From Chiloscyllium plagiosum (Eukaryota), in assembly GCF_004010195.1 (NCBI RefSeq), contig NC_057749.1, positions 16,830,901 through 16,864,321 of the forward strand: a DNA stretch of 33,421 nt. Direction: 5' to 3'. Position 1 is the stretch's first letter. Every line of letters starts with the position of its first letter. The notes beneath the pieces were generated by a model. The model had not been told where the DNA came from. It searched no databases and was given only the letters and a program-made list of their open reading frames with translations. Below are positions 105 through 33,421 of this stretch, one piece after another. The translations under genes were made by a program, and so were the position numbers.

Positions 105-301
105 GAGAAAGTGAGGTCTGCAGATGCTGGAGATCAAAGTTGAAACTTTATTGCTGGAACAGCACAGCAGGTCAGGCAGCATCCAGGGAACAGGAGATTC
201 GACGTTTCGGGCACAGGCCCTTGAAGGGCCTGTGCCCGAAACGTCGAATCTCCTGTTCCCTGGATGCTGCCTGACCTGCTGTGCTGTTCCAGCAATAAAG
301 T
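105..301. mobile_element. Palindromic non-autonomous Penelope-like element, family A
   Basis: Perfect 79-bp inverted arms 144-222 / 224-302. Exact 14-bp direct repeat tcctttttgctgag at 91-104 and 302-315. Partial hammerhead motif GAAGGGC-ctgt-GCCC-GAAACGTC-gaat. Confidence 0.8.
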
Positions 302-514
302 TCCTTTTTGCTGAGCTCAGAATGGATTGTATTAAATGTTCCCACAATGAAAGTTGCTGCAGCTGGCCCCTGGTTATTTCAGGAATCAATAATTTGGCCA
401 AATTGTTACTTTTCAACCTGTTCAACTTACTGTGACAAGAATCTTCACCTCTCCCATCAAAAGATATGGAACAGAGATTATTTACAGATTATTGTTCCTC
501 ACTGGAGAATGTCC

Positions 515-559
515 ACAGACAGAAAAGAAACAAAACATTTTTAATTTGCTGGATTTATT
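515..559 (-). terminator. Probable polyadenylation signal of ADAMTSL5 (AATAAA plus downstream GU/U-rich element)
   Basis: Minus-strand AATAAA at 554-559, followed about 15 nt later by tgttttgtttcttttctgtctgtg. AT-rich UTR-like sequence lies at about 870-1080. Confidence 0.6.
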
Positions 560-1512
560 GAATTTCTTCTTGCCGGTAATGTGACAGACATGGTGTCAAA
601 ATTGGAGAACGCTGCATTTTTGCACAGAATACACAACTCAGGTAAACAATTTGTTGATGCATTTCTCCTTGTCTCTCAGTCCATTGGTCACTCTTGCCCT
701 GCTCTCCTACCCTTCCACCCCACCACACCCTTTCCCCAGCTCCCCCTCTCCCTGACCTTCTCCCCTCTCCTCTCTTTGCCCCCTCCCCCTCTCCAATTCT
801 ATTTCTGCCCCTTGGCCCCTCCCCAGTTATTCCTCACTTGAATATCTCTGGCATTTATGCAACAACACGTTATTATTTACTGATATCAAACATGATTCTG
901 AATAAATACTTCTATATATTCTGAGCTATACATAGATATTTATATATGAATCTGTATATTTAGTCACTAATACAGTATAACTCTCTCTTTAAACAGTCAC
1001 CATTTAATATCATCATTTTGTTTTTCAAAATCACCAGATTATTTTAATAAAATTGATGAAACAGAATACAGTTCTTTTATATCCCTGAAGTGTTTTGGCA
1101 GCACCCACTCAGGAATGGATTCACTTTCTCTCTCTTTCCCTCACTCACCGTGAAATTAAGAAGTATGTTTCTGTCTAAAGTCAGGGTGCAGTTGTTGGAT
1201 GAGGGTTTAATCAGGTACTGTACAGTTGAATGTTTACATCCTATGATTTACAAACGAGTTTCCGACAGCCTCATGCCTGATTCACTTCACTGTGTGTTGT
1301 TGACATGTTCTTCCCAAGGGGTTTCGGAGTGACAGGAATCACTTGGAATCCCTTGGAGTGATTTACCAATCACTGCAGCATCTCCCGTAACGGAGACGCC
1401 ATCTCAAAGCGCTGGATTGAAGTGTACTCACTGTTACAATGCAGAAAACACAAGAGCCAATTTACACTTTGCAAGCTCCCATACTCCTCAGACAAGGTAA
1501 TTAGTTTTAGAT

Positions 1513-1714
1513 GCAACTTACTGCAGATGCTGAAATCTGTACTGAAAACAACAAAGCACTGGAAATCACAGTGGGTCAGGTAGCATCCATGGAGAGACAG
1601 TGAACTAATGTTTCCAGTCTAGATGTGTCTTCATCAGAGCTTGAAATGTTAGCTCACTGTCTCTCAGGATGCTGCCTGACCCACTGTGATCTCCAGCACT
1701 TTTTGTTTCCAGTC
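1513..1714. mobile_element. Palindromic Penelope-like element, family D (degenerate)
   Basis: Imperfect inverted arms. Exact 10-bp TSD agttttagat at 1503-1512 and 1715-1724. Minus strand reads gct-CTGATGA-a...GAAACATT-ag. Confidence 0.7.
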
Positions 1715-2352
1715 AGTTTTAGATCAGGAAGATCTCCACTATCCTTTGAAATGGTGACATGGAATTGTTTTACTTTCATTTGAGAGGGCAGAAGGGGGTT
1801 TCTATTTAACATCTTGTTGGAAAGACAACATCTCCAACAGTGCATTGCTCCTGTTCCAGCCTCTGGAAAGGATTCGGGGGTGAGTGGGTGAGTATATTAC
1901 CCACAGAAAACGACTGATTGTGGTGTTAGCCCTGATGACAGTATTAGATTAAAATACAAAGAGAAAGAAAGTGAGAGAGGGTCCAAGTGGAGAGCATTCT
2001 CTTATCAAGCCTGATCCTGAAGGTAGATCCCTTTGATATGGAAGGCGACCGTATTGTGTAAACCCATACGGGTAGGTTTGTGTTAGTAAAGAGCTGAGCA
2101 AGTGGTGCTAATACGTCATTGAATGTGGGCTCCAATTCTCAGGCTTTGTTCTGAAGCTCAAATATCTCGGATTCTCTCTGACTGAAGCCTTTCTGGTAAT
2201 GTCAGTAATTTAACACCCAACCCAAGCTGGATCACAACCCAATCAGCAATCTCACCGATCAATATCAGTGATTACAAAATGATCAAAGTGTGCTAATGCA
2301 GTGATTGACCCAGTGACCACTCACAATGATTACAGTGATCACTCTCAATGAT

Positions 2353-2552
2353 GTTAAAAATCACACAACACCAGGTTACAGTCCAACAGGTTTATTTGGA
2401 AGCACTAGCTTTCAGAGCACTGCTCCTTCATCGGGTGGTAAGCAGCGCTCCAAAAGGTAGTGCTTCCAAATAAACCTGTTGGACTGTAATGTGGAGTCGT
2501 GTGATTTTTAACTTTGTCCACCCCAGTCCAATACCAGCACCTCCAAACCATG
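2353..2552. mobile_element. Palindromic Penelope-like element, family B
   Basis: Inverted arms about 2353-2424 / 2440-2511. Exact 12-bp flanking repeat actctcaatgat at 2341-2352 and 2553-2564. Minus strand reads cac-CcGATGA-a-ggagc-agt-gctct-GAAAGCTA-gtg. Confidence 0.75.
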
Positions 2553-2772
2553 ACTCTCAATGATCATAGTGATCAAGAAATGATTAACTGCAGTGACCAA
2601 TCCCAGTGATTAATTGCAGTGATCAATACAGTGACCAATCCCAGTGATCAATTGTAACCCAATTTGTTGAGCATGCCCTGAACTGCTTCATTAGAGACTC
2701 TCCCCGATGATGTTCCCTCATATGGTGACGAAACATCTGAAAACAAACCTTCAAGCCCAGTGAGCTAACATC

Positions 2773-3083
2773 CGGTGGCACAGTGGTTAGCACTGCTGCC
2801 TCACAGCGCCAGAGACCTTGGTTCAATTCCCAACTCAGGCGACTGACTGTGTGGAGTTTGCACGTTCTCACCATGTCTGCGTGGGTTTCCTCCGGGTGCT
2901 AACAGTCCAAAGATGTGCAGGTCAGGTGAATTGGCCATGCTAAATTGCCCGTAGTGTTAGGTAAGGGGTAAATGTAGGGGTATGGGTGGGTTGCGCTTCA
3001 GCGGGGCGGTGTGGTCTTGTTGGGCCGAAGGGCCTGTTTCCACACTGTAAGTAATCTAAAATAATCTAATCTAATCTAATCTA
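2773..3083 (+). mobile_element. tRNA-derived SINE, HE1/V-SINE type
   Basis: A-box-like ggtggcacagtggttagc, B-box-like ggttcaattcc, V-domain-like core tgtgtggagtttgcac...gggtttcctccggg, CR1-like tail gggccgaagggcctgtttccacactgta, and (aatct)n end. Confidence 0.85.
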
Positions 3084-3430
3084 TACACTGAGCTGTTGTG
3101 TATTAAAATGGCCAACTTTCTTCTCTCTAAATTCCCTGTAGAGTCAAAAATACAACTGAGCTCATGACACAACTTGGAGCGTGTCTGAGTCACCCAGAGA
3201 TTGAGTTTTAGACACCATATGGAGCATACAGAGCCACAGGAAGCCATGGATCAGAGTGGCTCACGGGATCCCTGCTGTATGCAGCAAACTGTGAGAGTGT
3301 GCAATGTCTGAGGGGGGAGCTGTTTGCTGTAAAGTGTCAGAACCCCCACTGCGTTCCTCACGTCACTCACACTTGGTCCACACACAGTGACTGGAGCAGC
3401 CACCGAGCCCACCAAGGCTGGGCTTGATAC

Positions 3431-3765
3431 TTATCTGAGTGTGTTACCCGTGAGCTGGTATCCTCGCTTCTCACACTCCTCATCCAGGCCCCTCATGAGT
3501 CTGTCCTCCTGAGGTCTGTACCTTCGGACAAAGCTGTCTTTCTGCAGCAGGACCCGGTTCAGTGTCCGCTCATAGTTCACATGTCGGTGTGCCATCACCA
3601 CATACTGCTTCATCTCGACCAATCGGGGACAGTCGCAGGTATTCGGCACCCACAGATACTCCCGCCTTAAGACAGCAAAGCCTTTCTTGTACGCCTTCAC
3701 CACCTCAACGTCATAACATGTCTCCAGACCAACAATTCTTTTATTAATAACCTTCACATGTAAAA
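3431..3765 (-). CDS. ADAMTSL5: ADAMTSL5 last coding exon, NTR (netrin-like C345C) domain
   Basis: Acceptor ttccttccag|TT (phase 1). Translates (V)LHVKVINKRIVGLETCYDVEVVKAYKKGFAVLRREYLWVPNTCDCPRL...LDEECEKRGYQLTGNTLR, then TAA at 3431-3433. Contains the NTR CxCP motif. Confidence 0.95.
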
Positions 3766-3834
3766 CTGGAAGGAAAGAGGAGAGGGAAGATTCAGCAACA
3801 TTTCTCCAGCCACTTTGTTGTGAACCTGTCCAAT

Positions 3835-4567: not shown

Positions 4568-4915
4568 TATACCCTGTCCTCCTGTACCCTGTCCTCCTAT
4601 ACCCCCTTCTCCTGTCCTCCTGTACCCTGTATTCCTGCCCTCCTGTAAACTGTACTGTCCTGTCCTCCTGTACCCTGTCCTCCTGTACCCTGTATTCCTG
4701 CCCTCCTGTAAACTGTACTGCTGTATTCCTGTCCTCCTATACCCTTTACTCCTGTACCCTGTCCTTCTGTACCCTGTCCTCCTATACCCTGTACCCTGTC
4801 CTCCTGTACTCTGTCCTCCTGTACCCTGTCCTCCTGTACCCTGTCCTCCTGTACTCTGTCCTCCTGTACCCTGTCCTCCTGTACCCTGTACTCCTGTACC
4901 CTGTACTCCTGTATT
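4568..4915. repeat. 15-bp minisatellite (cctgtaccctgtcct)n
   Basis: Directly visible tandem units; source of the VLLYP and QEDRV pseudo-ORFs. Confidence 0.9.
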
Positions 4916-5617: not shown

Positions 5618-5868
5618 CTTTTGTGGTGCAGTGGTAATGTCCCTGGCTCTGAGCCAGGAGATCATGGTTCAAATCCCACCAGCTCCAGAGGTGTGCAATA
5701 AAGATCTCTGAACAGACTGATCAGGGAGTATCTCCCCGGGTCTTTATCCCATCCTTGTTTATAGGCCATACTTCCTAACCAACCCGTTCAGGCATACCTC
5801 TGGAGCAGCTGGGACATGAACCCAGAGCTCCTAGTTCAGAGATAGGGATACTACCACTGCACCAAAGA
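5618..5868. mobile_element. Two short tRNA-head SINE copies in inverted orientation
   Basis: 5618-5720 (+) tggtgcagtggtaatgtccct...ggttcaaatccc..ctccagagg, with a reverse-complement homologue at 5793-5868 (-). Related copies lie at about 34-90 and 18471-18545. Confidence 0.65.
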
Positions 5869-5909
5869 TAGGGACACTGCCACTATGTCACGAGTGCCCT
5901 TTATGGGCC

Positions 5910-7805: not shown

Positions 7806-7964
7806 GCCGAAAGCCAGTGGTTCCAAATAAACCTGGTGTGTGATCTTTTTCACTTTGAAAATAGGTCAAACCTGTGACAGGGAATCAAGCAGGAGGAAGT
7901 GCTGCTTTGATGAGAGGGGGAGGGTTGGAAGGGAGCATAAACCCCAGTTGAATTGAGGGTCTGC

Positions 7965-9354: not shown

Positions 9355-9582
9355 ATAAAAGCCAAATACAGCGGATGCTGGACATCTGAAACAGAAACAG
9401 AGGAAGTGTTGGAGAATCTCAGCGGGTCTGGCAGCATCTGTGGACAGACAGAGTGTTAATATTTTGAGTCTGGTGGAGTTCTGAACTAGTGTGACCAGAC
9501 TGGGAACGCTAACTCTTGTTTCTTTCACTACAGATGCTGCCAGACCTGCTGAGTTTCTCCAGCACTCTCTCTGTGTTTGTTT
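9355..9582. mobile_element. Palindromic Penelope-like element, family C (degenerate)
   Basis: Inverted arms (tggagaatctcagcgggtctggcagcatctgt / acagatgctgccagacctgctgagtttctcca). The centre reads gagtt-CTGAAc...GgAACGCT-aactc. No clear TSD. Confidence 0.65.
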
Positions 9583-9841
9583 CATGGTTTGTTCCTGACC
9601 AGTTGCGAAATGTAAATTATAAACAAATGGTGAATCATTACTGGTATACAATTGAAGGGTGGGGCATCGCAGGAACCTGAGTGTAATATATAATAATCGG
9701 CATTAGTGCGGATGAGATGTTCAATTGGAGTCCTTTGTCTTTCCCCCTCAGGATTCATGCCAGTAAAACAAAGAAGGGTGAGGTGGGAGGCGGGGGAGCC
9801 TGGTCAATCTCTAAAAGACATTATGGCAGATTATGACACCA

Positions 9842-10644: not shown

Positions 10645-10947
10645 TGTGTGTGTGTATGTGTGTGTGTGTGTATGGGTTTGTGTGTGTGTCTCTTTGCGTG
10701 TGTGTGTTTGTGTGTGTTTGCGTGAGTGTGTGTGTGTGCGTGTGTCTGTGTGTGTGTGCGCATGGGTTTGTGTGTGTGTGTGTATTTGTGTGTGTGTGTC
10801 TGTGTGTGTTTGCGTGAGTGTGTGTGTGCGTGTGTCAGTGTGTGTGTGCGCATGGGTTTGTGTGTGTGTGTGTATTTGTGTGTGTGTGTCTGTGTGTGTT
10901 TGCGTGAGTGTGTGTGTGCTTGTGTCTGTGTGTTTGTGTGTGTGTGG
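10645..10947. repeat. Compound (GT)n microsatellite with internal duplication
   Basis: GT runs with repeated interruptions catgggtttg, tgtatttg and ttgcgtgag. Confidence 0.9.
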
Positions 10948-11436: not shown

Positions 11437-11637
11437 CTAAAGATCAGAACATAACAGCAGGTCAAAGAGGTGAAAGGAAACACTTGCATTGCTGTTGTCA
11501 CCTTCCACATCCTCAGGAGGTTTAGGAATGCTTCAAAGCCAAGGAGGTACATTTAAACTGTCATTCACTGTCATCATGTTGGACACATAGTCACCAATTT
11601 GTGCACAGCAAGCTCCCACAAACAACAATATGATAAT

Positions 11638-11754
11638 AAAAGCAAAATACTACTCATGCTGGAAACCTGAAACAAAGACAACCACTCTGTTTCTCCCTCT
11701 GCACAGATACTGCCAGACCTGCTGAGTTTCTCCAGCAATTCTCTGTGTGAGAGT
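11638..11754. mobile_element. Truncated Penelope-like element, family C, inside a DeuSINE-like remnant
   Basis: acagatactgccagacctgctgagtttctccagca arm. Exact 11-bp TSD aatatgataat at 11627-11637 and 11755-11765. Confidence 0.65.
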
Positions 11755-11930
11755 AATATGATAATGTCTAGATAGTCGGTTTAGGTTTAGTTTTGCTGTT
11801 GGAGGGACAAATTGTGACCAGGATCCGGGGGAGATTCCAGCTTTCCTACAGCTCCAGCTCATTACATGCATTCCATTTCTCCAGTAACGGACCAAAGTTC
11901 ATTATTTACATCTTTGAAGCCTGACCAACT

Positions 11931-12906: not shown

Positions 12907-13241
12907 GGGCAGCAGGGTGGCTCAGCGCCAGGGGCCCAGGTTTGTATGTTCACCCCTGTGTGTGCATGGGTTTCCTCTGGCGCTCTGGATTTCCTCCCAC
13001 AGCCCAAAGATGTGCAGGTTAGGGTGGATTGGCCATGGGAAATGCAGCAATTGGGGATGGTGGGGGTGTCTGGGTGGGATGGTGACTGAATGGGGTCAAG
13101 ATTAGAGTGTTGCTGGAGAAGCACAGCAGGTCAGGCAGCATCCGAGGAGCAGGAAAATCGATGTTTCGGGCAAAAGCCCTTCATCAGGAAGACTGAACGG
13201 ACTGAACATCCTTTTCCCGCACTGTAGGCCTTCTATGATTC
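12907..13241 (+). mobile_element. HE1/V-SINE type SINE interrupted by a Penelope-like insertion
   Basis: gggtttcctctgg.gctctgg.tttcctcccacag.ccaaagatgtgcaggttagggtggattggccatg core and ctgtagg..ttctatgattc tail. Confidence 0.7.
13094..13190 (-). mobile_element. Penelope-like element family A (single arm) with intact minimal hammerhead-like core
   Basis: Minus strand reads ttc-CTGATGA-A-GGGC-tttt-GCCC-GAAAC-ATC-ga (13158-13190). TSD gactgaa(t/c)gg at 13084-13093 and 13191-13200. Confidence 0.75.
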
Positions 13242-16267: not shown

Positions 16268-16772
16268 TAACCCTAACCCTAACCCTAACCCTAACCCTAA
16301 CCCTATCCCTAATCCTAAACGTAACCCTAACCCTAACGATAACCCTAACCTATTCGTAACACTAACCTTAACCCAATTCCTAAACCTAACCCCTATTCCT
16401 AATCCTAATCCTAACCCTAACCCCTATTTCTATCCCTAACCCTAACCCCTATTTTGAACCCTAACCCAATCCTAACCCTAACCCTTATTCCTAAACCTAA
16501 CCNNNNNNNNNNNNNNNNNNNNNNNNNNNNNNNNNNNNNNNNNNNNNNNNNNNNNNNNNNNNNNNNNNNNNNNNNNNNNNNNNNNNNNNNNNNCCCCTAT
16601 TGCTAACCCTAACCTTAACCCGTAATCCTAAACCTAACCCTAACCCAAACCCTAACCCTAACCCCTATTCCCAACCCGAACCCCTCATCCTAACCCTAAC
16701 CCGTAATCCTAACCCTAACCCCTACTCCTAAACTAATCCCTATTGCAAACCCTAACCACTAACCCTAACCCT
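16268..16772. repeat. Interstitial telomeric-type repeat (CCCTAA)n with variants, containing an assembly gap
   Basis: Perfect taaccc units at the left end, variant units (cctatt, cctaat, cctaaa) further in; N gap 16503-16593. Confidence 0.9.
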
Positions 16773-17128
16773 CTGGCTGAGAATCCGGGCTCCTATGGCA
16801 CTGAGTGTACCCCCCAACCCGGGCAGCTGCCCAGACCCATTCAGGGCAGGAGCCTCCCCGGAGGCTGGGAATTGGTGTCAGTCACAGACTCTCTGCAGCC
16901 CACATTCCTGACGTTGGGATTGTGGGGTGCCAGAGTCTCGTTCAGTATTTGGGGGTTACCCTGCCCTGACTCACAGACTCACTTACCCCTCTCCCGGGGT
17001 GGGGCAGAGAGGTGGTGGGTGACACCACTACCTCAGACGCAACCCATCACCCCTTCACCTTCTACATTCAAGAGGAGGCAGCGGTGAGCAATGGCCGTCA
17101 CAGAACCTGCTGGCCTCCTGTTAGAGAT

Positions 17129-17228
17129 AAACACAGAGTGTGCTGGAGAAACTCAGCAGATCCAGCAGGGTCCAGAGAGAGAGAGAGAGTTCAATGTTTT
17201 CAGTCCAGTGGGACTCTCCTTCAGAATT
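17129..17228. mobile_element. Truncated Penelope-like element, family C
   Basis: tgctggagaaactcagcag...gagttcaatgttttcagtccagtgggactctccttcagaa. TSD tgt(t/c)agagat at 17119-17128 and 17229-17238. Confidence 0.55.
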
Positions 17229-17329
17229 TGTCAGAGATGGTTGCAGCTAATGTTGGTTTTCAGTTCAGTCTGGGTTATGGGGTTCAGAGTGTGTTAAAGT
17301 TTCCAAATATTAAATCGATAACTGCTCAC

Positions 17330-18963: not shown

Positions 18964-19131
18964 GAGCAATATTCTGCAGATGCTGGAAAAGCTCAGTGGG
19001 TCTGGCAGTATCTGTGGAGAGAAATTAGAGTTAATGTTTTGAGTCGAGTGACCCTTCCTCAGATCTCCAATCTCTCTCCACAGACGCTGCCAGACCTGCT
19101 GAGTTTCTCCGGCAATGTCCGTTTTTATTTA
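18964..19131. mobile_element. Palindromic Penelope-like element, family C
   Basis: Inverted arms. Minus strand reads CTGAGGA-a-gggtc-actc-gactc-aAAACATT-aac. Confidence 0.65.
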
Positions 19132-19243
19132 AAATACTAAAAGGGACTGACAGGTCAGATCGAGAAAAACTGTTTATCTAGGTCGGTGGGAGGGCGATGG
19201 GAACAAGGAGAGGGATGTTAGAGTCAGATCACTCAGGGATGAG

Positions 19244-19423
19244 TCCAAAAGTGTGGTGCTAGAAAAGCACACCTATCAGGCAGCATCTGAGGAGCAGGAG
19301 AGTCAACGTTTAGGGCATAAGCTCTTCATCAGCAATTTCCTCAGATGCTGCCTGATCGGCTGTGCTTTTCCAGCACCACACTCTTGACTCTGACCTCCAG
19401 CATCTTCAATGTGCATTTTCTCC
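19244..19423. mobile_element. Palindromic Penelope-like element, family A
   Basis: Inverted arms. Minus strand reads CTGATGA-a-gagc-ttat-gccc-tAAACGTT. Flanking repeat tca(c/g)tcaggga(t/g)gag (13/15) at 19229-19243 and 19424-19438. Confidence 0.7.
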
Positions 19424-20261
19424 TCAGTCAGGGAGGAGCAGGAAGTGAGGACAGTGCAGGGTGCGGTGTTGGAGAATGATTGGAGCTGGAGGATGGATAG
19501 ATTCTAGTTAGAGAGGAGGAGTAGGAGAAAGGGATGTGAGGGATTGATTAGCCATGACCCCAGTGAAGAGCAGAGCAGACCCTAAGGGTTGAATGGCTTC
19601 CTGTTAGGACAATAGATGCAATGGTTGTGGCAATTCAGGAGGTTTGGGCACCACACGTCTCCTTTCACCCCAACACTGTCTACAATCCAATCAGGACAGT
19701 GGGATGGAACTCTCCTCACCCGTTTCCATATTTTCCTGAGGGAACTGTCTCCTCACTGAGGGCGGGCTGGCGGGGTGGTGAGACTGGATGGTGGGAGGGT
19801 GGGGATCTTGGTGGAGGGTGGGGAAGGGCGGTAGAGGGTGGAGGAGTGGGTGGGAGTGTGGGGGACGGTGGTGAAAGGTGGGCGAGTTTGGTGGAGGGTA
19901 AGTGTGTGGGGAAGGGTGGGAGAGAGTTGGGGGAAGGTGAGTGTAGGGGGGAGAGCGGGGGGAGTTTGATGCAGGGTGGGCAGAGGGTGGTGTAAAGTGA
20001 AGAGGGATCAGAGAGGGGTTTCCCAGAATCCAACTGATGGTTCACTCAGTGATGGAGGAGGTCACCAAGAGGATCAGAGAATCAAATCCCAGGAGAATGG
20101 AGCTGATACCTTGGAGACGTCCTTGTTGATACAATGCTCCACATGTGGAACTGCATTTATATAGCATCTTAAACATCCCAAAGCACTTCACAGAAGTCTT
20201 ACCCAGTAAAAGTTGACCTTCAATATATCTATGCAAGGGATGCAAGTGGTGTTATTGCTGG

Positions 20262-20566: not shown

Positions 20567-20965
20567 AAATATATATTTATACACATGTGGACATAAGAGC
20601 ACAGGTGACCAATAGGTTAGGCCAAGAACGAAGGTTTTGTGGGGGGTTCCAAGGGGACACGGAGGGGCAAAGGGAGGGAACTCCAGAGTTTAGGGCCCAG
20701 GCAGCTGATGGGAGTGAGGGTTACTATAAAGGCCAGTTACACTCTGAGTTTAAACTGCTCTTTCACCTTGTATTTGATGATGGCCCATATGGGGAGCTGA
20801 TTGCTCAGTGGTAACATCACTGAACTAGATGCTCAGGGAGCTAATCTGCTGGAGCACAAGGGTTCAAATCCCACCACCGCAGCAGCTGTGGTGAGTTTAT
20901 ATAACAATGAAACAAGTGTCAGTCAAACTACGAATGCCCCTTCGAAAGGATACCTGTTGTCTATA

Positions 20966-21091
20966 ACTGATGAAGAGTTTTTGCCCAAAACATCGGTTCT
21001 CCTGCTCCCCAAATGCTGCCTGACCTGCTGTGCTTTTCCAGCACCACACTCTTGACTCTGATCTCCAGCATCTGCAGTCCTCACTTTCGCC
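20966..21091 (+). mobile_element. Penelope-like element family A (single arm)
   Basis: CTGATGA-a-gagt-tttt-gccc-aAAACATC at 20967. Flanking repeat ta(c/g)ct(g/a)ttgtctata (13/15) at 20951-20965 and 21092-21106. Confidence 0.7.
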
Positions 21092-21907
21092 TAGCTATTG
21101 TCTATACCTGGTCTTTCGGAAATGTGATTCTCTAACTGCAAACCTCTTTCAAGAGCAGTTAGGGATGGACAACAAATACTGGCTTCACATTGTGCAAAGG
21201 CATTAGCTGGAGGCTCACTCCTGGTGGATGCTGTGGGCAAACACAATCCAGCTGTCCCTCGGAGGTGGGAACCTGAGGACAGACTCTCTTGCCTTCTGAA
21301 GTGGGTCATTTCATGGCTGATGGAGTGGGCCGGGCCTGGCCAGACCTGGACTCACAGGCAGCTTTCTCACGGGCAGTCTGAGCTTCCCTGTCACTTTGTG
21401 CCCTCCCCTTTTGTACAAACTGTTCCTCTGTGGAAATATTTTCTCTGGAGTGTCTTGTTGGTTTGTTAAAAATAGCACAGCGATTAAAAACGTGGAACAG
21501 GGCCCAGGATATAACTTTTAAAAAGAACTTCCTCTTTTCACAGCATCCCAAAGGCACTTTGCAACCAATGAGCTGATTCCTTGATGTGAGGTCACTGTTG
21601 AAACGGAGGAAATTAGGAAGCCAATTTGGGCACAGCAAGCTCCCACAAACAGGGATGAGGTAATGACCGAAACATCTGTTTCGCGGATTTTGATTCAGTT
21701 ATAAAAATAAATTGGGACACTGATTTGAAGGAGTGACGTGTTATCTTGAACACCCACCTGAGATGTGAACCATGGTTGTGGTTTAGCAACTCAGTGGGCT
21801 CTTTCTGTGCCCAACCTCATCGAAAACAGCATCTTGGACTATGCAACAAGGACCCTGGAGTGGGTATCAATGCCACCACCTCCAGCCTTGGAGGGCTAGC
21901 AGTGTGG

Positions 21908-22102
21908 AGAGTGTGATGCTGTAAAAGGGCAGCAGGTCAGGCAGCATCCGAGGAGCAGGAGAATCAATGTTTCAGCCCTTCATCAGGAATCATGTCCGAA
22001 ACGTCGATTCTCCTGCTCCTTGGATGCTGCCTCACCTACTGCGCTTTTCCAGCACCACACTCTCAACTCTGATCTCCAGCATCTGCAGACCTCACTGTCT
22101 CG
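21908..22102. mobile_element. Palindromic Penelope-like element, family A
   Basis: Inverted arms around cccttcatcaggaat...ccgaaacgtcgattc. TSD gggct(a/g)gcagtgtgg (14/15) at 21893-21907 and 22103-22117. Confidence 0.75.
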
Positions 22103-22191
22103 GGGCTGGCAGTGTGGCACCCTGAGGGTCCAGCACCATGCAGGGGTGACCTCCCCCTTCACCCCCCCCTTCACCACCCTCCGCCACTTAC

Positions 22192-24516: not shown

Positions 24517-24544
24517 CTGAGGAGAGACAGAGACAGCTTCAGAA

Positions 24545-25720
24545 CCCCAGCAACAGGCCTGACATTACCCCAGCAACAGGCCTGACTCTATCCCGGCAAC
24601 AGGTCCGATATCACCCCAGCAACAGGCCTGATATTACCCCAGCAACAGGCCTGATATCACCCCAGCAACAGGCCTGATATTACCCCAGCAACAGGCCTGA
24701 TGCTACTCCGGCAACAGGTCCGATATCACCCCAGCAACAGGCCTGTAATTACCCCAGCAACAGGCCTGACATTACCCCAGCAACAGGCCTGATATTACCC
24801 CAGCAAAAAGCCTGATGCTACTCCGGCAACAGGTCCGATATCACCCCAGCAACAGGCCTGATATTACCCCAGCAACAGGCCTGATGCTACCCCGGCAACA
24901 GGTCCGATGTCACCCCAGCAACAGGCCTGATATTACCCCAGCAACAAGCCTGATGCTACTCCGGCAACAGGTCCGATATCACCCCAGCAACAGGCCTGAT
25001 ATTACCCCGGCAACAGGTCCGATATCACCCCAGCGACAGGCCTGATATTACCTCAGCGACAGGCCCGATATTATCTCAGCAACAAGTCCTATATTACCCC
25101 AGCAATAGGCCTGATATTACCCCATCAACAATCTCAATATTACCTCAGCAACAGGCCTGATATTACCCCATCAACAGGCTGGATATTACCTCAGCGACAG
25201 GCCTGATATTACCCCAGCAACAGGCCTGATATTACCCCAGCCACAGGCCCGATATTACCCCAGCAATAGGCCTGATATTACCCCAGCAACAGGCCCAATA
25301 TTTTCTCAGCAACAGGTCCAATATTACCCCAGCAATAGGCCTGATATTTTCCATCAACAATCTCAATATTACCCCAGCAACAGTCTCAATATTACCTCAG
25401 CAACAGGTGTGATATTACCCCAGAAACAGGCTTGATATTACCCCAGAAACAGGCCTGATATTACCCCAGCAACAGGTTCGATATTACCCTAACAACATGT
25501 CCGATATTACCAAAGGAACAAGTCCAATATTACCCAAGGAATGGGGTCAGTATTACACCAATATCAGATCCAAAATTAACACAGGAACAGGCCCAATCTT
25601 ACACCAGAGTTGAGGCCTAATATTTTCAAGGAAAGACTCAGAGATACCCCAGAACAGGTCCAAGATCCAGAATTACACCACATGTAGACTCAGTATTACC
25701 CTTGCCACAGGCCTGATGTC
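24545..25720. repeat. 23-bp minisatellite (atattaccccagcaacaggcctg)n
   Basis: Directly visible. A three-unit higher-order pattern appears on the left; units decay progressively to the right. Confidence 0.92.
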
Positions 25721-26585: not shown

Positions 26586-27149
26586 CATTCTCTGATACAC
26601 AGTGGAGATTTTGCGTTTGATCCCATCAATTGGTTGGGGGGGTAACGTGTGATGGGCATGATGCCTCACTGAGCTGCTAGAGATAGGGTCCAGGCAAGCT
26701 ATCTGAGGATGTGACGAGCCAATGTGGGGAATCTGCAATCTTCGAGAACTTGCTTCCTGCAGCTTTCCCTGAAATGGAATGGCGGTCTCTTCCCTGCCCT
26801 CAGACTGAGCATCACCGGGAAGTGACGGACAGTTATAGAGACAGGAGCAGAGAGGTGGGGAAGGTAGAAACAACCCAGAAGTCACCGAATCAATGACAAA
26901 CACTAACCCAGCGCTGGGATTCAATATTCCTCGATATAAAGAGTTCAAAATCAGTAATCTTGGATAGAACCCCCCTGTCAGGTCACCATGTCTGTTCTGA
27001 ATCATGCCAGAGTTGAAATGTTAACTCTGTTTCTCTCTCTACAGTTGGTATCTGACCTGCTGAGTTTCTCCAGCAGTTCCTATTTCGCTCAGAACTGAGC
27101 ACTGTTCCGAGTTCTCCTTCCTTTCTAAACACAGTGGAAAGTGCAATTA

Positions 27150-27600: not shown

Positions 27601-28395
27601 ATATACCATGTGTGATATACATTGAGGGTTATATAGACAATGTGTTATACCTGTGTAATATCCCATGTATTATGTATACTGTGTGTTATATACCCCGTGT
27701 GTTATATATCCCGTGTATTATATACCCTGTGTGTTATACCCAGTGTTATATACCCCGTGTGTTATATACCCCGTGTGTTATGTACCCCGTGTGTTATATA
27801 CCCCGTGTTATATACCCCATGTGTTATATACCCCATGTGTTATGTGCCCCGTGTGTTATGTGCCCCGTGTGTTATATACCCTGTGTTATATACCCCGTGT
27901 GTTATGTACACCGTATGTTATGTACCCCGTGTGTTATATACCCCATGTGTTATGTACCCCGTGTATTATATACCCTGTGTGTTATATACCCTGTGTGTTA
28001 TATACCCCATGTGTTATGTACCCCGTGTGTTATATACCCTATGTGTTATATACCCTGTGTGTTATATACCCCGTGTGTTATGTACACCGTATGTTATGTA
28101 CCCCGTGTGTTATATACCCTGTGTGTTATGTACCCCGTGTATTATATACCCTGTGTGTTATATACCCCGTGTGTTATATACCCTGTGTGTTATGTACCCC
28201 GTGTGTTATATACCCTGTGTGTTATATACCCCGTGTGTTATGTACCCTGTGTGTTATATACCCCATGTGTTATATACCCTGTGTGTTATATACCCCATGT
28301 GTTATGTACCCCGTGTGTTATATACCCCATGTGTTATATACCCTGTGTGTTATATACCCTGTGTGTTATATACCCCGTGTGTTATGTACACCGTG
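27600..28395. repeat. 16-bp minisatellite (gtgttatataccc[c/t]gt)n
   Basis: Directly visible; source of the CYIP and VLYTP pseudo-ORFs in all three plus frames. Confidence 0.93.
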
Positions 28396-28484
28396 TATGA
28401 TAAAGACTGTGCGTTATACACAGACGATCCTCCAATGCTGAAATTTATAAAAGCAGAATCTTCAGAGTGGAAGTCATCAGAGTT

Positions 28485-28825: not shown

Positions 28826-29040
28826 TGTCCTTGACATGAGTTCTGAGTAATGGTCACTCGATCCAAATTGTCAAGATTATTTAGATTAGATTAGATTACT
28901 TTACAGTGTGTCAACTCTCATTTCTGCCCAAAGATACTTCCAGAGTCGCTGTTGTTGTCAATCTCTGTTGCATCCCATCCCCATCATCCACCCCCACCCC
29001 CATGCCACTGTAATCGTGGTGCTAAAGTGTGCAAACCATC

Positions 29041-29132
29041 AGAGAGAGAGAGAGGGAGCGAGAGAGGGAGGGAGGGAGAGAGAGAGACAGAGAGAGAGGG
29101 AGGGAGGGAGAGAGAGAGAGAGAGAGAGAGAG
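29041..29132. repeat. (GA)n/(GGGA)n microsatellite
   Basis: Directly visible. Confidence 0.9.
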
Positions 29133-30424
29133 AAAAACAGTCAGAAAGGAAATGAGATGACAGCGGTGCGAGCTGCTAGTTCACCCACAACTCCAGGAGA
29201 TCCTGGGAAGGGAGTGGGTGGAGTAAGGAGGTCATATGGGGACAAACCACAGTACAGGGTCCCAAAAAGGTATTATGGACAGAATGGCCTCTCCCAGTGT
29301 ATGATCTGTGGCTGATCAGTGTGTCTGGGTGGAGAGTTCACAGCTGTCAGAACATCTGCCTGGCTGTGATGCACCCTGTAGCCAAATATCCTTCTTTAGA
29401 TTCTAAAAAAACTGCAGTCACTGACTGTGGAGAGGTGGTTACCGGGGAATGCAGGGTGAGATGGTGATAGCACCCGCTCAGTGAGAGAATGGTTACTGTA
29501 CAGGTAGAGACCACTCAGCCCATCATGGATGGAACCTGGAGTGACCCAATCCTGAGTCAGGCACTGGGTCTGATCCTTCAGTCTTTACAAACCCACTCAT
29601 TACCCGGACCCAGTGGTAGGTGAGGGTTGGATGGGGGCATGTGTGCGGAGGACCAGAGGGTGGGAGGGATGAGTGGCACTGGAAGGCAATGCAGTCAGGT
29701 CTGGGTGACGGTTTGACTGTGATGCCTACTGTAGTCTAATAGCCTGCCATGCACCATGGTTAGACCAGAGGAGAGGCCATTAATTTGGCACATTGACCGA
29801 TACAGAAAGTGTGGGTTTGGACTGGGATTTCTGAAAGTTTCACCATTTAATGTAATATTCACCTCCTGTCTTGCCCTGCCTCACCCAGTCAAATAGCCGC
29901 TATTCCCGCCTCAGCTAAGAGAGGTGAACTCGACTATCTGGGGATTAGACATGGGGTCTTGCTTGTTGATAGGATATTGTTGTCTGTGACCAGCCAATCT
30001 CCCTCCATCCCCGATCCTCCCTACACTCCTTCACCAATTGCAGTGCTTTATAAAGATTGGAAAATCAGAGGCTGGACCTAGTTCAGGATGGAGTTACTCT
30101 GTGTCACCTGCTCTCCACTGAGGTTAACGTCAGAATGCTGCTGCTCCCTTTATCACCGCCAGGATATTTAACTGTGAGAGGCATCACAGCCAAATGAGAC
30201 CCAGCCCCCATCTGATGCCAGAGGTGTACATAGTGCATGTGAGGGTGCAGTGTGAGGGTAGGATGTCTTCCACAGTTCAGCAGCCCACTCACAATGGCCT
30301 GGCTGAGACCAGAAGAACTGTGTCACCTCGAGATACTTCAGGGTGGGGGGTGGGGGAGGGGGGTTCATTTATGAACCAATCCCAACAGAGTTCCAGTTGC
30401 AGGTAAAGTGAGGATTTGACTCAC

Positions 30425-30497
30425 CGCAGCTAGTAACTGAGAATGTACGATGATTCCGAACACGGTGACATTCACAAGCAGAAATCTGGGCTGGGCC
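30425..30497 (-). CDS. ADAMTSL5: Probable ADAMTSL5 signal-peptide exon
   Basis: 73 bp, ctgtttgttccag|G...GCG|gtgagt. The phase 2-0 frame reads AQPRFLLVNVTVFGIIVHSQLLAA (basic residue, hydrophobic core, small residues). It cannot join directly in frame to the 26294-26354 exon. Confidence 0.55.
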
Positions 30498-31319
30498 CTG
30501 GAACAAACAGTAATACAGCATGACGGTCAGTCCCTCATCTTCACAGCCTCCCCTCAAACCTCCAGCTCCTTCAAATTCCTCCCTCCCCCTCCCTCTTCTC
30601 TCTCTGTATTTCTGTGTAACTATGAGGGACAGTACGGATTTCCATGGAATAGGCCAATCCATTTAAAAATATACGGAGTACACTTAATTCATATAGACCC
30701 TGAATTAATAGCATATTCCAGATTCACTGTCAGTTCAGCAAACTGTACTCCATCAGATCGTCTCATTCCATAGCCTCCTCTCCTCTTTAAAACTGAAAGT
30801 AAAGCTCCCTCTACACAGTTTCCCCATCAAACGCTCCCAGGACAGGGACAGCACAGGGCTAGATACAGAGTAAAGCTTCCTCTACTATGAGAGTCACCCC
30901 TGGTTCTCTGTGCTGTTTAACCTGCAACATTTAACCTACAAATTCTGTGACAGTGTGGTGCTTGATGAATTGACTGTGTGTAACCTGGTACTCAGACAGT
31001 GGTTAATGGTTAACCAATCCCTGCCTTCTGAATGGGCAACATGGTAGCTGAGATTCATGCCAGGCCACGATGGCTGTGACAGTCACTCGGTAACTCACTC
31101 ACACCTGAATAATGTGATTTAATGTTTAATGTGGTTTCTCTGGAAAGTGATTGGGATACTCCTTCCAGCAAGATGGCGGGTGGAGTCAGGCTTGTCTGCA
31201 TTTCATTTCATTTCTTTTCTTTGTTTTTCTCCCCTCTTGTTTGTTTCTTCTGTTTTATTTCACTTATCGCTTGGTGAAGCGCTTGGATTGGCAATGGCAT
31301 TGGGGTGAGGGAGCCCGGC

Positions 31320-33421
31320 GGCACGGACTGGAGTGGGCCCAGCAGACTGGCTGGAGTGGGCCCAGCAGCACGGACTGGAGTGGGCCCAGCAGCACAGACT
31401 GGAGTGGGACCAGCAGACTGGCTGGAGTGGGACCAGCAGCACGGACGGGAGTGGGCCCAGCAGCACGGACTGGAGTGGGACCAGCAGCACAGACTGGAGT
31501 GGGACCAGCAGACTGGCTGGAGTGGGACCAGCAGCACGGACTGGAGTGGGACCAGCAGACTGGCTGGAGTGGGCCCAGCAGCACAGACTGGAGTGGGCCC
31601 AGCAGCACAGACTGGAGTGGGACCAACAGCACGGACTGGAGTGGGACCAGCAGACTGGCTGGAGTGGGCCCAGCATCATGGACTGGAGTGGGACCAGCAG
31701 CACAGACTGGAGTGGGACCAGCAGACTGACTGGAGTGGGACCAGCAGCACGGACTGGAGTGGGCCCAGCAGCACGGACTGGAGTGGGACCAGCAGCACTG
31801 ACTGGAGTGGGCCCAGCAGCACAGACTGAAGTGGGCCCGGCAGCACGGACTGAAGTGGGACCAGCAGACTGGCTGAAGTGGGCCCAGCAGCACGGACTGG
31901 AGTGGGCCCAGCAGCACAGACTGGAGTGGGACCAGCAGACTGGCTGAAGTGGGACCAGCAGCACGGACTGGAGTGGGCACAGCAGCACGGTCTGGAATGG
32001 GACCAGCAGCACTGACTGGAGTGGGCCCAGCAGCACAGACTGAAGTGGGCCCGGCAGAACGGACTGGAGTGGGACCAGCAGACTGGCTGGAGTGGGCCCA
32101 GCAGCACGGACTGGAGTGGGCCCAGCAGCACAGACTGGAATGGGACCAGCAGACTGGCTGGAGTGGGACCAGCAGCACGGACTGGAGTGGGCCCAGCAGC
32201 ACGGACTGGAGTGGGACCAGCAGCACAGACTGGAGTGGGACCAGCAGCACAGACTGGAGTGGGAGCAGCTGCACGGACTGGAGTGGGCTCAGCAGCACTG
32301 GCCCAGCAGCACAGACTGGATTAGGCCCAGCAGTACAGACTGGATTAGGCCCAGCAGCACTGGCCCAGCAGCACGGACTGGAGTGGGCCCAGCAGCACAG
32401 ACTGGAGTGGACCCAGCAGCACTGGCCCAGCAGCACGGACTGGATTGGGCCCAACAGCACGGAATGGAGTGGGACCAGCAGCACTGAATGGATTGGACCC
32501 AGCAGCACAGACTGGAGTGGGACCAGCAGCACAGACTGGAGTGGACCCAGCAGCACTGGCCCAGCAGCACGTACTGGATTTGGCCCAGCAGCACGGACTG
32601 GATTGGGCCCAGCAGCACTGACTGGAGTGGGCCCAGCAGCACAGACTGGAGTGGGCCCGGCAGCACAGACAGGAGTGGATCCAGCAGCACGGACTGGAGT
32701 GGACCCAGCAGCACAGACTGGAGTGGGCCCGGCAGCACAGACTGGAGTGGGCCCGGCAGCACAGACAGGAGTGGATCCAGCAGCACGGACTGGAGTGGAC
32801 CCAGCAGCATGGACTGGAGTGGATCCAGCAGCACAGACTGGAGTGGGACCAGCAGCACTGGACCAGCAGCACGGACTGGATTTGGCCCAGCAGCACGGAC
32901 TGGATTGGGCCCAGCACCACGGACTGGATTGGACCCAGCAGCAAGGACTGGAGTGGGACCAGCAGCACAGACTGGGGTAGGCGCAGTTGCACGGACTGGA
33001 GTGGGACCAGCAGCACGGACTGGAGTGGGACCAGCAGCACAGACTGATTCCTGAAGAAGGTCTTATGCCCGAAACGTCGATTCTCCTGCTACTTGGATGC
33101 TGCCTGACCTGCTGCGCTTTTCCAGCAACACATTTTCAGCTCTGATCTCCAGCATCTGCAGACCTCACTTTCTCCTCCCAGCAGCACGGACTGGAGTGGG
33201 CCCAGCAGCACGGACTGGAGTGGGCCCAGCAGCACGGACTGGAGTGGGCCCAGCAGCACGGACTGGAGTGGGCCCAGCAGCACTGACTGGAGTGGGCCCA
33301 GCAGCACGGACTGGAATGGGACCAGCAGCACAGACTGGAGTGGGCCCAGCAGCACTGACTGGAGTGGGCCCAGCAGCACGGACTGGAATGGGACCAGCAG
33401 CACAGACTGGAGTGGGCCCAG
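31320..33421. repeat. 24-bp GC-rich minisatellite (gggcccagcagcacggactggagt)n with 23-bp and shorter variants
   Basis: Directly visible, more than 2 kb, runs off the window end. Source of many overlapping pseudo-ORFs on both strands. Confidence 0.95.
33047..33177 (+). mobile_element. Penelope-like element family A (single arm) inserted in the minisatellite
   Basis: attc-CTGAAGA-A-GGtC-ttat-GcCC-GAAAC-GTC-gat at 33047-33081. The rest matches the family A arm ending ctccagcatctgcagacctcactttctcc. Confidence 0.8.

What the first reader, a model, noticed from the sequence alone, without database searches (positions are those of the whole stretch)
105..33177. Four families of short hammerhead-ribozyme-bearing, TSD-flanked palindromic retro-insertions (non-autonomous Penelope-like system)
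Seen: about 14 short elements of 50-230 bp (105, 1513, 2353, ~7806, 9355, 11638, 13094, 17129, 18964, 19244, 20966, 21908, ~27015, 33047) fall into four sequence families. The less truncated copies share the layout stemI-CTGAnGA-A-stemII-GAAA-(CG|GC)-TH-stemI'. The stems differ between families yet still pair. Family A: attc/gaat (composite of the 33047 and 105 copies) with GGGC/GCCC. Family B: cac/gtg with GGAGC/GCTC(T/C). Family C: gagtt/aactc with GGGTC/GACTC. Family D: gct/agc. The stem III position is a 4-nt palindrome (ACGT or AGCT) where it has not decayed. Nine copies have 10-15 bp flanking direct repeats of variable length, and many have a variably truncated inverted second arm. Established: Penelope-like elements carry minimal type I hammerheads that lack stem III and are thought to cleave as dimers. 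They insert with variable TSDs and often have inverted, truncated terminal repeats. An extra A after CUGAUGA occurs in natural hammerheads. Inference: these are very abundant, ORF-less, ribozyme-bearing derivatives mobilised in trans, here about one per 2.5 kb. Most copies have decayed cores. Whether these particular families are already described cannot be judged from the sequence.
Basis: partly seen in the sequence, partly recalled or inferred. Interest (0 to 1): 0.8.

Follow-up and report, generated by a model that had tools for sequence, protein, structure and literature searches.

The report
Truncated Penelope retroelement tails with hammerheads
The short palindromic repeats are the chopped-off tail ends of ordinary Penelope-like jumping genes, which code for their own proteins and carry a small hammerhead ribozyme motif; this is a known kind of element, here very abundant in a shark-like genome.

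Summary
BLAST finds 13 of the 14 listed elements, and the 14th is visible by eye. They fall into four families. Each is a ~130-nt module: a minimal type I hammerhead (CUGANGA, one unpaired nt, helix II, GAAA, a 4-nt palindrome, UH) followed by an ~85-nt tail. Stems covary between families while the core stays fixed. Ten of 14 have 10-16 nt flanking direct repeats, and seven are two-armed.

These are Penelope-like elements (PLEs), but I found no ORF-less system of their own. In longer genomic copies each family's module follows a PLE ORF: RT plus GIY-YIG for A and endonuclease-homologous ORFs for B, C and D. The 3' ends are bimodal, about 40 nt apart, which is the published PLE 'tail' signature.

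No window copy passes a strict hammerhead descriptor. Intact copies exist elsewhere in the genome. The youngest A and B subfamilies carry a stem mismatch or C at core position 4.

One feature may be new. Half of the insertions (34 of 69) start exactly at the hammerhead's 5' edge, about 30 nt downstream of a TATA-like box. This suggests run-off copies of pLTR-promoter transcripts. It is a known kind, so interest is low to moderate.

The parts
105..299 (.). Family A two-armed insertion. The minus-strand arm (102-222) reaches the distal 3' end. The plus-strand arm (223-295) stops at the proximal 3' end. Both arms are cut inside the hammerhead. TSD at 89-104 / 300-315.
   Evidence: (I1: 79 nt, 100% complementary)
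1513..1712 (.). Family D two-armed insertion. The minus-strand arm (1513-1641) starts at the hammerhead's 5' edge. TSD at 1501-1512 / 1713-1724.
   Evidence: (I7, I19)
2353..2549 (.). Family B two-armed insertion. The minus-strand arm holds the whole hammerhead (core CCGATGA) and ends at the proximal site. The plus-strand arm is cut inside the hammerhead and reaches the distal end. TSD at 2338-2352 / 2550-2564.
   Evidence: (I3)
7807..7860 (+). Family B fragment that begins inside the hammerhead. No TSD found.
9355..9584 (.). Old C-like two-armed insertion with a decayed hammerhead. No TSD found.
   Evidence: (I5)
11638..11754 (.). Family C insertion. The plus-strand arm starts at about the predicted cleavage site. 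TSD at 11627-11637 / 11755-11765 (11 nt, exact).
13094..13190 (-). Family A single arm. It starts at the hammerhead's 5' edge and ends at the proximal 3' site. The stem-III palindrome has decayed to ACAT. TSD at 13084-13093 / 13191-13200.
17129..17228 (-). Diverged C-like single arm, not found by BLAST at E<=1e-4. TSD at 17119-17128 / 17229-17238.
18964..19130 (.). Family C two-armed insertion. The minus-strand arm holds the whole hammerhead, with G12 decayed to A. No TSD found.
   Evidence: (I6)
19240..19423 (.). Family A two-armed insertion. TSD at 19229-19239 / 19424-19434.
   Evidence: (I12, I23)
20970..21097 (+). Family A single arm running from the hammerhead's 5' edge to the distal end. 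TSD at 20957-20969 / 21098-21110.
21908..22102 (.). Family A two-armed insertion. The minus-strand arm runs from the hammerhead edge to the proximal end. The plus-strand arm is cut inside the hammerhead and reaches the distal end. TSD at 21893-21907 / 22103-22117.
   Evidence: (I2)
27016..27085 (+). Family C fragment that begins inside the hammerhead. No TSD found.
33044..33178 (+). Young family A single arm from the hammerhead's 5' edge to the distal end. It is 97-99% identical to many genomic copies. It sits inside a 24-nt satellite, so the TSD cannot be judged.

Best explanation
The elements are dead-on-arrival copies of the 3'-terminal module of several autonomous, endonuclease-bearing Penelope-like retroelement (PLE) lineages that fill this genome. 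The module is about 130 nt long: a minimal type I hammerhead followed by an ~85-nt tail.

Shown here:
- The module is contiguous with RT/GIY-YIG ORFs in longer copies.
- TSDs vary from 10 to 16 nt.
- Copies end at one of two 3' sites about 40 nt apart.
- About a third of insertions are head-to-head pairs. In most of these, one arm ends at the distal site and the other at the proximal site.
- The hammerhead core is invariant across five families, while both stems covary.

Inferred from published PLE biochemistry (the anole element PAc, PMC11167929):
- The RT-EN protein makes staggered cuts, which produce the TSD.
- It primes reverse transcription from both DNA strands.
- It starts copying at internal sites in the tail RNA, which explains the bimodal 3' ends.
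- The two cDNAs meet head to head, which produces the inverted arms.

My own inference concerns the insertions that begin within a few nt of the hammerhead's 5' edge. Half of them do, and the edge lies ~30 nt downstream of a TATA-like box in all four families. The RNA template probably starts there, at a pLTR promoter. The 130-nt copies would then be full run-off cDNAs of short pLTR-initiated transcripts and not random truncations.

The hammerhead is kept by the master lineages. It presumably acts as a dimeric or protein-assisted ribozyme that processes multimeric or read-through RNA. Its catalysis is probably not needed for insertion, because the youngest A and B subfamilies carry a helix II mismatch or C at core position 4.
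For: ORF linkage:
- A: L026 has a 561-aa frame with RVT_1 (E 1.4e-8, above cut-off) and GIY-YIG (E 5e-4, below cut-off). A ~150-nt UTR, the hammerhead and the tail follow.
- A: L008 has an open 187-aa EN frame next to a young A tail.
- That EN protein gave 168,230 first-look candidates in the genome, of which 150 were scored at E<=1e-83.
- C: L078, E 8e-15. D: L089, E 2e-24. B: L048, E 1e-5, decayed.

Hammerhead:
- The strict descriptor gives 12 hits in 269 kb of loci against 0 in 20 simulations. The relaxed one gives 96 against 0.3.
- In 18 natural copies of 5 families, 127 of 144 stem cells pair, against 50-61 of 144 with slid partners.
- Helix I pairs 1-3 and helix II pairs 2-4 each use 3-4 different Watson-Crick pair types.
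- G10.1-C11.1 is kept in 17 of 18 copies, and an unpaired nt after GA is present in 18 of 18.
- These are the features listed for PLE min-HHRs in PMC4209133 (whole text read).

Insertion anatomy, from an unselected sample of 69 insertions (13 of the window's 14, plus bystanders in 197 kb):
- The longest arm starts at the hammerhead edge in 34, upstream in 12, inside the hammerhead in 21 and downstream in 2.
- Of 24 two-armed insertions, 19 have one distal and one proximal 3' end.
- TSDs.

Promoter geometry: a run of six or more A/T lies at -36 to -22 in 4 of 4 families, against 15% of random positions.
Against: - No window copy has an intact hammerhead.
- Self-cleavage was not tested, and published PLE min-HHRs cleave poorly in vitro (PMC4209133).
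- Rfam hammerhead models give no hit even on intact copies.
- The EN domain scores below Pfam's GIY-YIG cut-off.
- For B the ORF link rests on one decayed copy (E 1e-5).
I could not see a full-length element, its 5' end or a pLTR tandem, and I made no RT phylogeny.
- The transcription-start idea rests on genomic pile-ups and a post hoc motif only. Families A, C and D share tail motifs, so the four are not independent.
- The stem counts come from rows picked by a descriptor that requires pairing. The percentage paired is therefore inflated, and only the variety of pair types is informative.
- The loci were chosen around PLE copies, so densities from them are biased.
Confidence: 0.85

Rival explanations
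1. The four families are ORF-less, non-autonomous hammerhead-bearing elements (SINE-like or retrozyme-like). They have their own master copies and are mobilised in trans by PLE proteins.
For: - Copies pile up at a discrete ~130-nt length: 34 of 69 start at the hammerhead edge.
- Short copies vastly outnumber long ones. Contig and read depth over the module is 10-40 times that over the UTR and ORF.
- Non-autonomous PLE derivatives are proposed in print (bioRxiv 10.64898/2026.07.22.740005; part 1 and passages read).
Against: - Every family's module is found joined to a PLE ORF.
- The youngest A variant itself occurs with the upstream UTR and an open EN frame.
- A 130-nt copy lacks the upstream TATA-like region and so has no evident promoter of its own.
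- The window holds no tandem arrays of the units: 26 TRF rows, none of these units.
Confidence: 0.1
2. Non-LTR retrozymes. Tandem hammerhead repeats are transcribed, self-cleave, circularise and are copied back into DNA. The window copies would be their solo monomers.
For: - The same type I hammerhead with a weak helix III is present.
- A 2026 preprint finds retrozymes in its one chondrichthyan genome and links them to PLE pLTRs.
Against: - Copies are dispersed singles or head-to-head pairs with TSDs, not direct tandems.
- Unit ends are not at the predicted cleavage site. Few 5' ends lie there.
- Copies are contiguous with ORFs.
Confidence: 0.03
3. Foldback or MITE-type DNA transposons, or hairpin RNA genes, in which the hammerhead-like boxes are chance.
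For: - The elements have a palindromic shape.
- There are weak miRNA-model hits, all far below gathering scores.
Against: - TSD length varies from 10 to 16 nt.
- Arms are unequal and variably truncated.
- Single-armed copies are the majority: 45 of 69.
- The elements are linked to RT/EN ORFs.
- The motif count is far above simulations.
- Stems covary.
Confidence: 0.01

Closest known systems
Minimal hammerheads (min-HHR) in the pseudo-LTRs of metazoan EN+ Penelope-like elements (Cervera and De la Pena 2014, PMC4209133; Lunse, Weinberg and Breaker 2017, seen only as a reference in PMC6765202)
   Same: - Type I hammerhead with no real helix III and a palindromic 15.2-16.2.
- An unpaired nt between positions 9 and 10.1.
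- A conserved G10.1-C11.1 pair.
- Several covarying families per genome.
- Most motifs are solo or paired on opposite strands 100-700 bp apart, and were ascribed to truncated PLEs.
   Different: - The host is a shark-like genome, which I did not see treated in the papers read.
- Helix II here is 4-6 bp.
- The youngest subfamilies carry C at core position 4 (B) or a helix II mismatch (A).
Poseidon PAc of Anolis carolinensis (Frangieh et al. 2024, PMC11167929)
   Same: - The hammerhead lies ~90-130 nt upstream of the insertion's 3' end.
- There are two alternative 3' ends, the 'tail'.
- Both target strands appear to be used.
- Hammerhead catalysis is dispensable for insertion in vitro, which fits the damaged cores in young subfamilies here.
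   Different: - In PAc the ORF starts inside hammerhead stem II. Here I found no open frame running from the module into an ORF.
- No biochemistry was done here.
- The EN linker here carries a CX4CxxC motif. PMC8557442 ascribes that motif to the Neptune/Nematis clades, not Penelope/Poseidon. The clade was not tested by a tree.
Drosophila virilis Penelope regulatory region (Schostak et al. 2008, PMC2377424, passages read)
   Same: - The promoter lies in the pseudo-LTR.
- The 3' pLTR can drive outward transcription.
- The transcription start lies shortly upstream of the hammerhead.
   Different: - The Drosophila promoter is TATA-less and internal, with a 75-bp intron between the start site and the hammerhead.
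- Here a TATA-like box sits ~30 nt before the hammerhead edge, and no intron is evident.
Metazoan non-LTR retrozymes (Cervera and De la Pena 2020, PMC7229834, search listing only; Li, Clavereau and Pollet 2026 preprint)
   Same: - Type I hammerheads.
- A proposed PLE origin.
- High copy numbers.
   Different: Retrozymes are direct tandem arrays that give circular RNAs. These elements are dispersed, TSD-flanked singles or inverted pairs joined to ORFs in longer copies.

Membership tests
Penelope-like elements (EN+) | A single ORF with a reverse transcriptase followed by a C-terminal GIY-YIG endonuclease, contiguous with the repeat | tested here: met
   - A: L026 has a 561-aa frame with RVT_1 (E 1.4e-8, 35.1 bits, above the 29.6 cut-off) and GIY-YIG (E 5e-4, 20.7 bits, below the 22.6 cut-off). 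The module follows ~150 nt after the stop.
- tblastn with that protein: C in L078 (E 8e-15), D in L089 (E 2e-24), B in L048 (E 1e-5, decayed).
- For B to D only the EN part was seen.
Penelope-like elements (EN+) | The RT groups with PLE/telomerase RTs in a phylogeny | not tested
The closest database proteins carry RVT_1, GIY-YIG, PF26215 and PF28514 and are unnamed or 'uncharacterized'.
Penelope-like elements (EN+) | Variable-length target-site duplications | tested here: met
   10 of 14 window copies have TSDs of 10-16 nt. One of them lies in a satellite and cannot be judged. Controls reached the same score in 68 of 300.
Penelope-like elements (EN+) | Strong 5' truncation, with an adjacent inverted 5'-truncated copy | tested here: met
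   24 of 69 insertions are two-armed, and only 12 of 69 extend upstream of the hammerhead. Long palindromic copies also occur in L023 and L024.
Penelope-like elements (EN+) | An optional 30-40 bp 'tail' extension, often at one end only | tested here: met
   The 3' ends are bimodal: A at 684-693 vs 724-730, B at 681-690 vs 717-729 in reference coordinates. 19 of 24 two-armed insertions have one of each.
Penelope-like elements (EN+) | Partial tandem arrangement forming pseudo-LTRs | not testable with these tools
   The 5' parts of long copies read N, so no full-length unit could be inspected.
PLE-type minimal hammerhead (min-HHR) | Core boxes CUGANGA and GAAA, a UH cleavage site and type I topology | tested here: met
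   12 strict hits in the loci against 0 in simulations. The window copies are all damaged: 0 strict hits and 3 relaxed hits. Young B copies have C at position 4: 30 of the 30 loci retrieved with a query that carries the same base.
PLE-type minimal hammerhead (min-HHR) | An unpaired nt between 9 and 10.1, a G10.1-C11.1 pair and a palindromic 15.2-16.2 | tested here: met
   The unpaired nt is present in 18 of 18 copies (A in families A-D, U in E). G-C is kept in 17 of 18. The palindrome is ACGU, AGCU or AUAU, or a CpG-decayed form.
PLE-type minimal hammerhead (min-HHR) | Compensatory changes in helices I and II between families | tested here: met
   Helix I pairs 1-3 and helix II pairs 2-4 each use 3-4 Watson-Crick pair types. 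127 of 144 stem cells pair, against 50-61 of 144 when slid. The rows were chosen by a pairing descriptor, so the percentage is inflated.
PLE-type minimal hammerhead (min-HHR) | Site-specific self-cleavage (as a dimer or with protein) | not testable with these tools
   The RNA reads laid showed no pile-up of ends, but the library was poly(A) single-cell and cannot show this.
Rfam hammerhead families (type I, II, III, HH9, HH10; family names recalled) | A match to a curated covariance model | tested here: not met
   No hammerhead hit at E<=10 in the window or in five loci holding intact copies. This is expected if the models require helix III.
Non-LTR retrozymes | Direct tandem repeats in which each unit holds a hammerhead | tested here: not met
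   None of the 26 TRF rows in the window has these units. Arms are single or inverted.
Non-autonomous (ORF-less) retroelement family | No longer copies in which the repeat continues into a coding region | tested here: not met
   All four families continue upstream into PLE ORFs in some copies.

The most novel reading that the evidence does not exclude
The ~130-nt copies are a specific product and not random truncations. A TATA-type promoter in the PLE pseudo-LTR would start transcription exactly at the 5' edge of the hammerhead. Because PLE reverse transcriptase initiates internally ~85 or ~130 nt downstream, every such transcript would template a run-off mini-copy. This includes read-through RNAs from the 3' pLTR of any long copy. 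It would explain why hammerhead-plus-tail modules swamp the genome. It would also place the hammerhead at the very 5' end of the element's RNA, where cleavage would remove the cap and the first ~32 nt. The recent bursts from subfamilies with a damaged core (C at position 4, or a helix II mismatch) would then show in vivo that ribozyme catalysis is dispensable for PLE copying.
Probability: 0.35. Interest if true: 0.45.

Novelty: new member of a known kind. Interest (0 to 1): 0.25.

Why it matters
The result explains a very abundant class of short palindromic repeats in a large vertebrate genome: about one per 2.4 kb in this window. They are ordinary by-products of Penelope-like retroelements, and there is no need to propose a new mobile system.

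It also offers natural in vivo data on three open questions about PLEs:
- The paired distal and proximal 3' ends fit priming from both target strands and internal initiation. So far this has been shown only in vitro, for one lizard element.
- The sharp 5' boundary at the hammerhead, with a TATA-like box 30 nt upstream, gives a testable position for the RNA start.
- Recently amplified subfamilies with impaired hammerhead cores bear on whether the ribozyme is needed for transposition.

None of this changes the known picture unless the run-off model is confirmed.

Tried and rejected
- Rfam: the gathering and E<=10 scans gave only weak miRNA-like hairpin hits and one tRNA-like hit, and no hammerhead.
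- RNA evidence: no RNA holder was listed among the indexed runs.
- Read laying: I laid two raw poly(A) single-cell RNA runs and two contig sets on L026:500-1400. One raw run gave 0 reads. The other gave 2381 reads on both strands, of which 92% ran on into unrelated sequence. No place was flagged where molecules begin or end. The depth profile mirrors genomic copy number. This library type cannot show small or uncapped RNAs, so it says nothing on cleavage or on a start site.
- ORF start in the module: I looked for an ORF start inside the module, as in PAc. Family A has an ATG-led frame open to the end of the tail, but C and D do not. Shark gene models P0025 and P0038 show no such N-terminus. 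This stays unresolved.
- Full-length proteins: the 'longer' search gave nothing above 51% identity. The 'near' search gave 66-81% identical fragments named from orectolobiform sharks.
- Full-length elements: the ORF bodies and 5' parts read N. I left them so.
- Dimer folding: thermodynamic dimer folds only gave trivial strand-swapped stems and cannot test helix III. Monomer folds of intact A and C copies do give helix I and helix II with an open core.
- Alignment: MAFFT misplaced family B by one column, so I counted pairs by anchoring on the core boxes in a script and did not use the count of structure pairs.
- Earlier-findings look-ups gave nothing for this genome or this sequence.
- Lunse et al. 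2017 is not held.

Full report
**What the window is.** The window is vertebrate-like DNA (GC 0.43-0.54) from a 3.56-Gb assembly that is held as G000. The closest named relatives of the retroelement protein found here come from orectolobiform sharks, at 66-81% identity.

**Checking the observation.** I read all 14 listed places and made four oriented family references from longer genomic copies. BLAST of these against the window finds 13 of the 14. The copy at 17129 is a diverged C-like copy visible by eye.
- Seven elements are head-to-head pairs of arms. The best is 144-222/224-302, 79 nt and 100% complementary.
- Ten of 14 have direct repeats of 10-16 nt with at most one mismatch abutting their ends. 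The one at 33047 lies in a 24-nt satellite and cannot be judged. Among 300 random pseudo-elements, 68 reached the same score, mostly in satellites.

**The hammerhead motif.** Rfam finds no hammerhead in the window, at gathering scores or at E<=10. It also finds none in five loci that hold intact copies. The curated models do not see this stem-III-less form. I therefore wrote two descriptors.
- The strict descriptor requires CTGANGA, 0-1 unpaired nt, helix II of at least 4 bp closed by G-C, GAAA, a Watson-Crick NN, TH, and helix I of at least 3 bp.
- It finds 0 motifs in the window and 0 in 200 simulations. Every window copy is damaged.
- In 87 genomic loci (269,283 bases, chosen around such repeats) it finds 12, against 0 in 20 simulations.
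- A relaxed descriptor tolerates the usual CpG decay: CG to TG or CA in the palindrome, and G12 to A after C11.1. It also allows C at position 4 and one stem mismatch.
- It finds 3 in the window against a mean of 0.005 (200 simulations), and 96 in the loci against 0.3.
- All strict hits have the extra unpaired nucleotide.

**Covariation.** I took 18 natural copies from five families: A to D plus a fifth, E, met by chance in the loci. I anchored them on the core boxes.
- Helix I pair 1 is C-G, U-A or A-U.
- Helix I pair 2 is U-A, A-U or C-G.
- Helix II pairs 2-4 each use three or four different Watson-Crick pairs.
- G10.1-C11.1 is kept in 17 of 18.
- Overall 127 of 144 stem cells pair, against 50-61 of 144 when the partners are slid.
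- The rows were picked by a descriptor that requires pairing. The percentage is therefore inflated, and the variety of pair types is the real evidence.
- These are the features that Cervera and De la Pena list for PLE min-HHRs: an unpaired nt between 9 and 10.1, a conserved G10.1-C11.1, a palindromic 15.2-16.2, and covarying families (PMC4209133, whole text).
- Minimum-energy folds of intact A and C copies give helix I and helix II with an open core.

**Partners.** The 33047-type tail has copies at 97-99% identity, with 2290 first-look candidates of which 40 were scored.
- In 3 of 8 loci the homology runs on upstream.
- In L008 it reaches an open 187-aa frame with a weak GIY-YIG match.
- That protein has 168,230 first-look candidates in the genome, of which 150 were scored.
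- L026 has no withheld stretch. It carries a 561-aa open frame with RVT_1 (E 1.4e-8) and GIY-YIG (E 5e-4, below cut-off) and a CX4CxxC linker. About 150 nt of UTR, the hammerhead and the tail follow.
- The same holds for the other families: C in L078 (E 8e-15), D in L089 (E 2e-24) and, more weakly, B in L048 (E 1e-5, a decayed frame).
- The A and C endonuclease regions are only about 30% identical, yet the hammerhead core and its place ~130 nt from the 3' end are the same. This argues for long-term selection in the master lineages.
- Many ORF stretches read N. I left them, so I saw no complete element, no 5' end and no pLTR tandem.

**Anatomy of insertion.** To avoid query bias I used the 13 window copies found by BLAST plus bystander copies in 65 loci (197,075 bases) fetched for other families. 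That gives 69 insertions, 24 of them two-armed.
- The 3' ends are bimodal, about 40 nt apart.
- In 19 of 24 two-armed insertions, one arm ends at the distal site and the other at the proximal site.
- In 15 of those 24, the arm that reaches further 5' has the proximal end and the other arm the distal end.
- This is the PLE 'tail present only at one end' (PMC8557442, passages).
- It fits the anole element PAc, whose protein cuts and extends both strands and starts reverse transcription at two internal sites. Hammerhead mutants of PAc insert normally (PMC11167929, parts 1-2).

**A sharp 5' boundary.** The longest arm starts within 590-609 of the reference, which is the 5' edge of helix I, in 34 of 69 insertions. 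It starts upstream in 12, inside the hammerhead in 21 and beyond it in 2.
- In the window the boundary is real, because TSDs or the other arm abut it.
- It is not the predicted cleavage site, which lies ~32 nt downstream.
- In all four families a TATA-like A/T run lies 24-34 nt upstream of this boundary. Such a run occurs at 15% of random positions.
- In Drosophila Penelope the promoter lies in the pLTR, the start site lies shortly upstream of the hammerhead, and the 3' pLTR can drive outward transcription (PMC2377424, passages).
- I therefore propose that the boundary is the RNA start, and that the 130-nt copies are run-off cDNAs of short pLTR transcripts.
- This is inference. The motif was defined after seeing it, and families A, C and D are related.
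- The only raw RNA reads on hand (poly(A) single-cell) showed no pile-up of ends and cannot test it.

**State of the ribozyme.** Most differences from intact copies are CpG decay.
- All 30 loci retrieved with the window's young B copy, which itself has C at core position 4, share that base. Older B copies have U there.
- The youngest A subfamily has a U-C mismatch in helix II and a U-U mismatch in helix I.
- That core position 4 is needed for activity is recalled knowledge, not checked here.
- If it holds, recent amplification went on with impaired ribozymes. That agrees with PMC11167929 and with the remark in PMC8557442 that hammerheads may merely ride on PLEs.

**Comparison and verdict.** Every tested defining feature of EN+ PLEs and of their min-HHRs is met. 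The RT phylogeny, the pLTR tandems and cleavage itself were not tested.
- The retrozyme definition (direct tandems) is not met.
- The 'ORF-less family' definition is not met.
- My searches turned up no paper on these shark families. One 2026 preprint reports retrozymes in a single chondrichthyan.
- I could not consult Repbase or Dfam, and bioRxiv supplements are closed.
- The finding is real and was well read, but it belongs to a known kind. Its most original part is the 5' boundary and its promoter geometry.

Noticed in passing
L004:356-397 (+), L044:295-336 (-), L029:2473-2515 (+): A fifth hammerhead family (E), not present in the window. The unpaired nucleotide is U instead of A, helix II is 6 bp (GUUACC/GGUGAC type) and helix I differs from the other families. 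I did not check whether it ends a PLE.
   Followed up: partly
window 33087-33170 and the tails of families A, C and D (e.g. window 19065-19130, 1513-1600): Downstream of the hammerhead, families A, C and D share a conserved tail: GATGCTGCC(T/A)GACC..CTG..TTTCCAGCA, followed by CAGCATCTGCAG. The GATGCTG and CAGCATC stretches could pair over a long range. This is a candidate binding or initiation signal for the reverse transcriptase. Family B has an unrelated tail.
   Followed up: no
window 16268-16772, around the withheld run 16503-16593: An interstitial telomere-type repeat, (TAACCC)n, of about 500 bp on both sides of a stretch that reads N.
   Followed up: no
window 5624-5696 and 5792-5864; also 45-100: Two tRNA-derived SINE-like copies lie in inverted orientation (73-nt arms, 81% complementary). 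One scores as a tRNA in Rfam (31.6 bits, just above gathering). A third fragment lies at 45-100, next to the family A insertion at 105.
   Followed up: partly
window 31313-33421, 24544-25511, 27681-28396, 4570-4913, 10645-10946: Several satellites and microsatellites, with units of 24/48/72, 23, 16, 15 and 2 nt. The 33047 copy sits inside the first. L002 likewise shows family A copies inside a satellite, which recalls the published PLE bias for simple repeats.
   Followed up: no
L043 (oriented +) 1098 and 1499; L002 (oriented -) 1500 and 2119: Two same-strand copies share identical upstream junctions, 401 and 619 nt apart. They look like later tandem duplication of an insertion together with its flank, not retrozyme-type arrays.
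   Followed up: no
L008, L018, L026 (EN linker of the family A ORF): [quoted passage not shown] PMC8557442 ascribes this motif to the Neptune and Nematis clades of PLEs. The clade was not tested by a tree.
   Followed up: no
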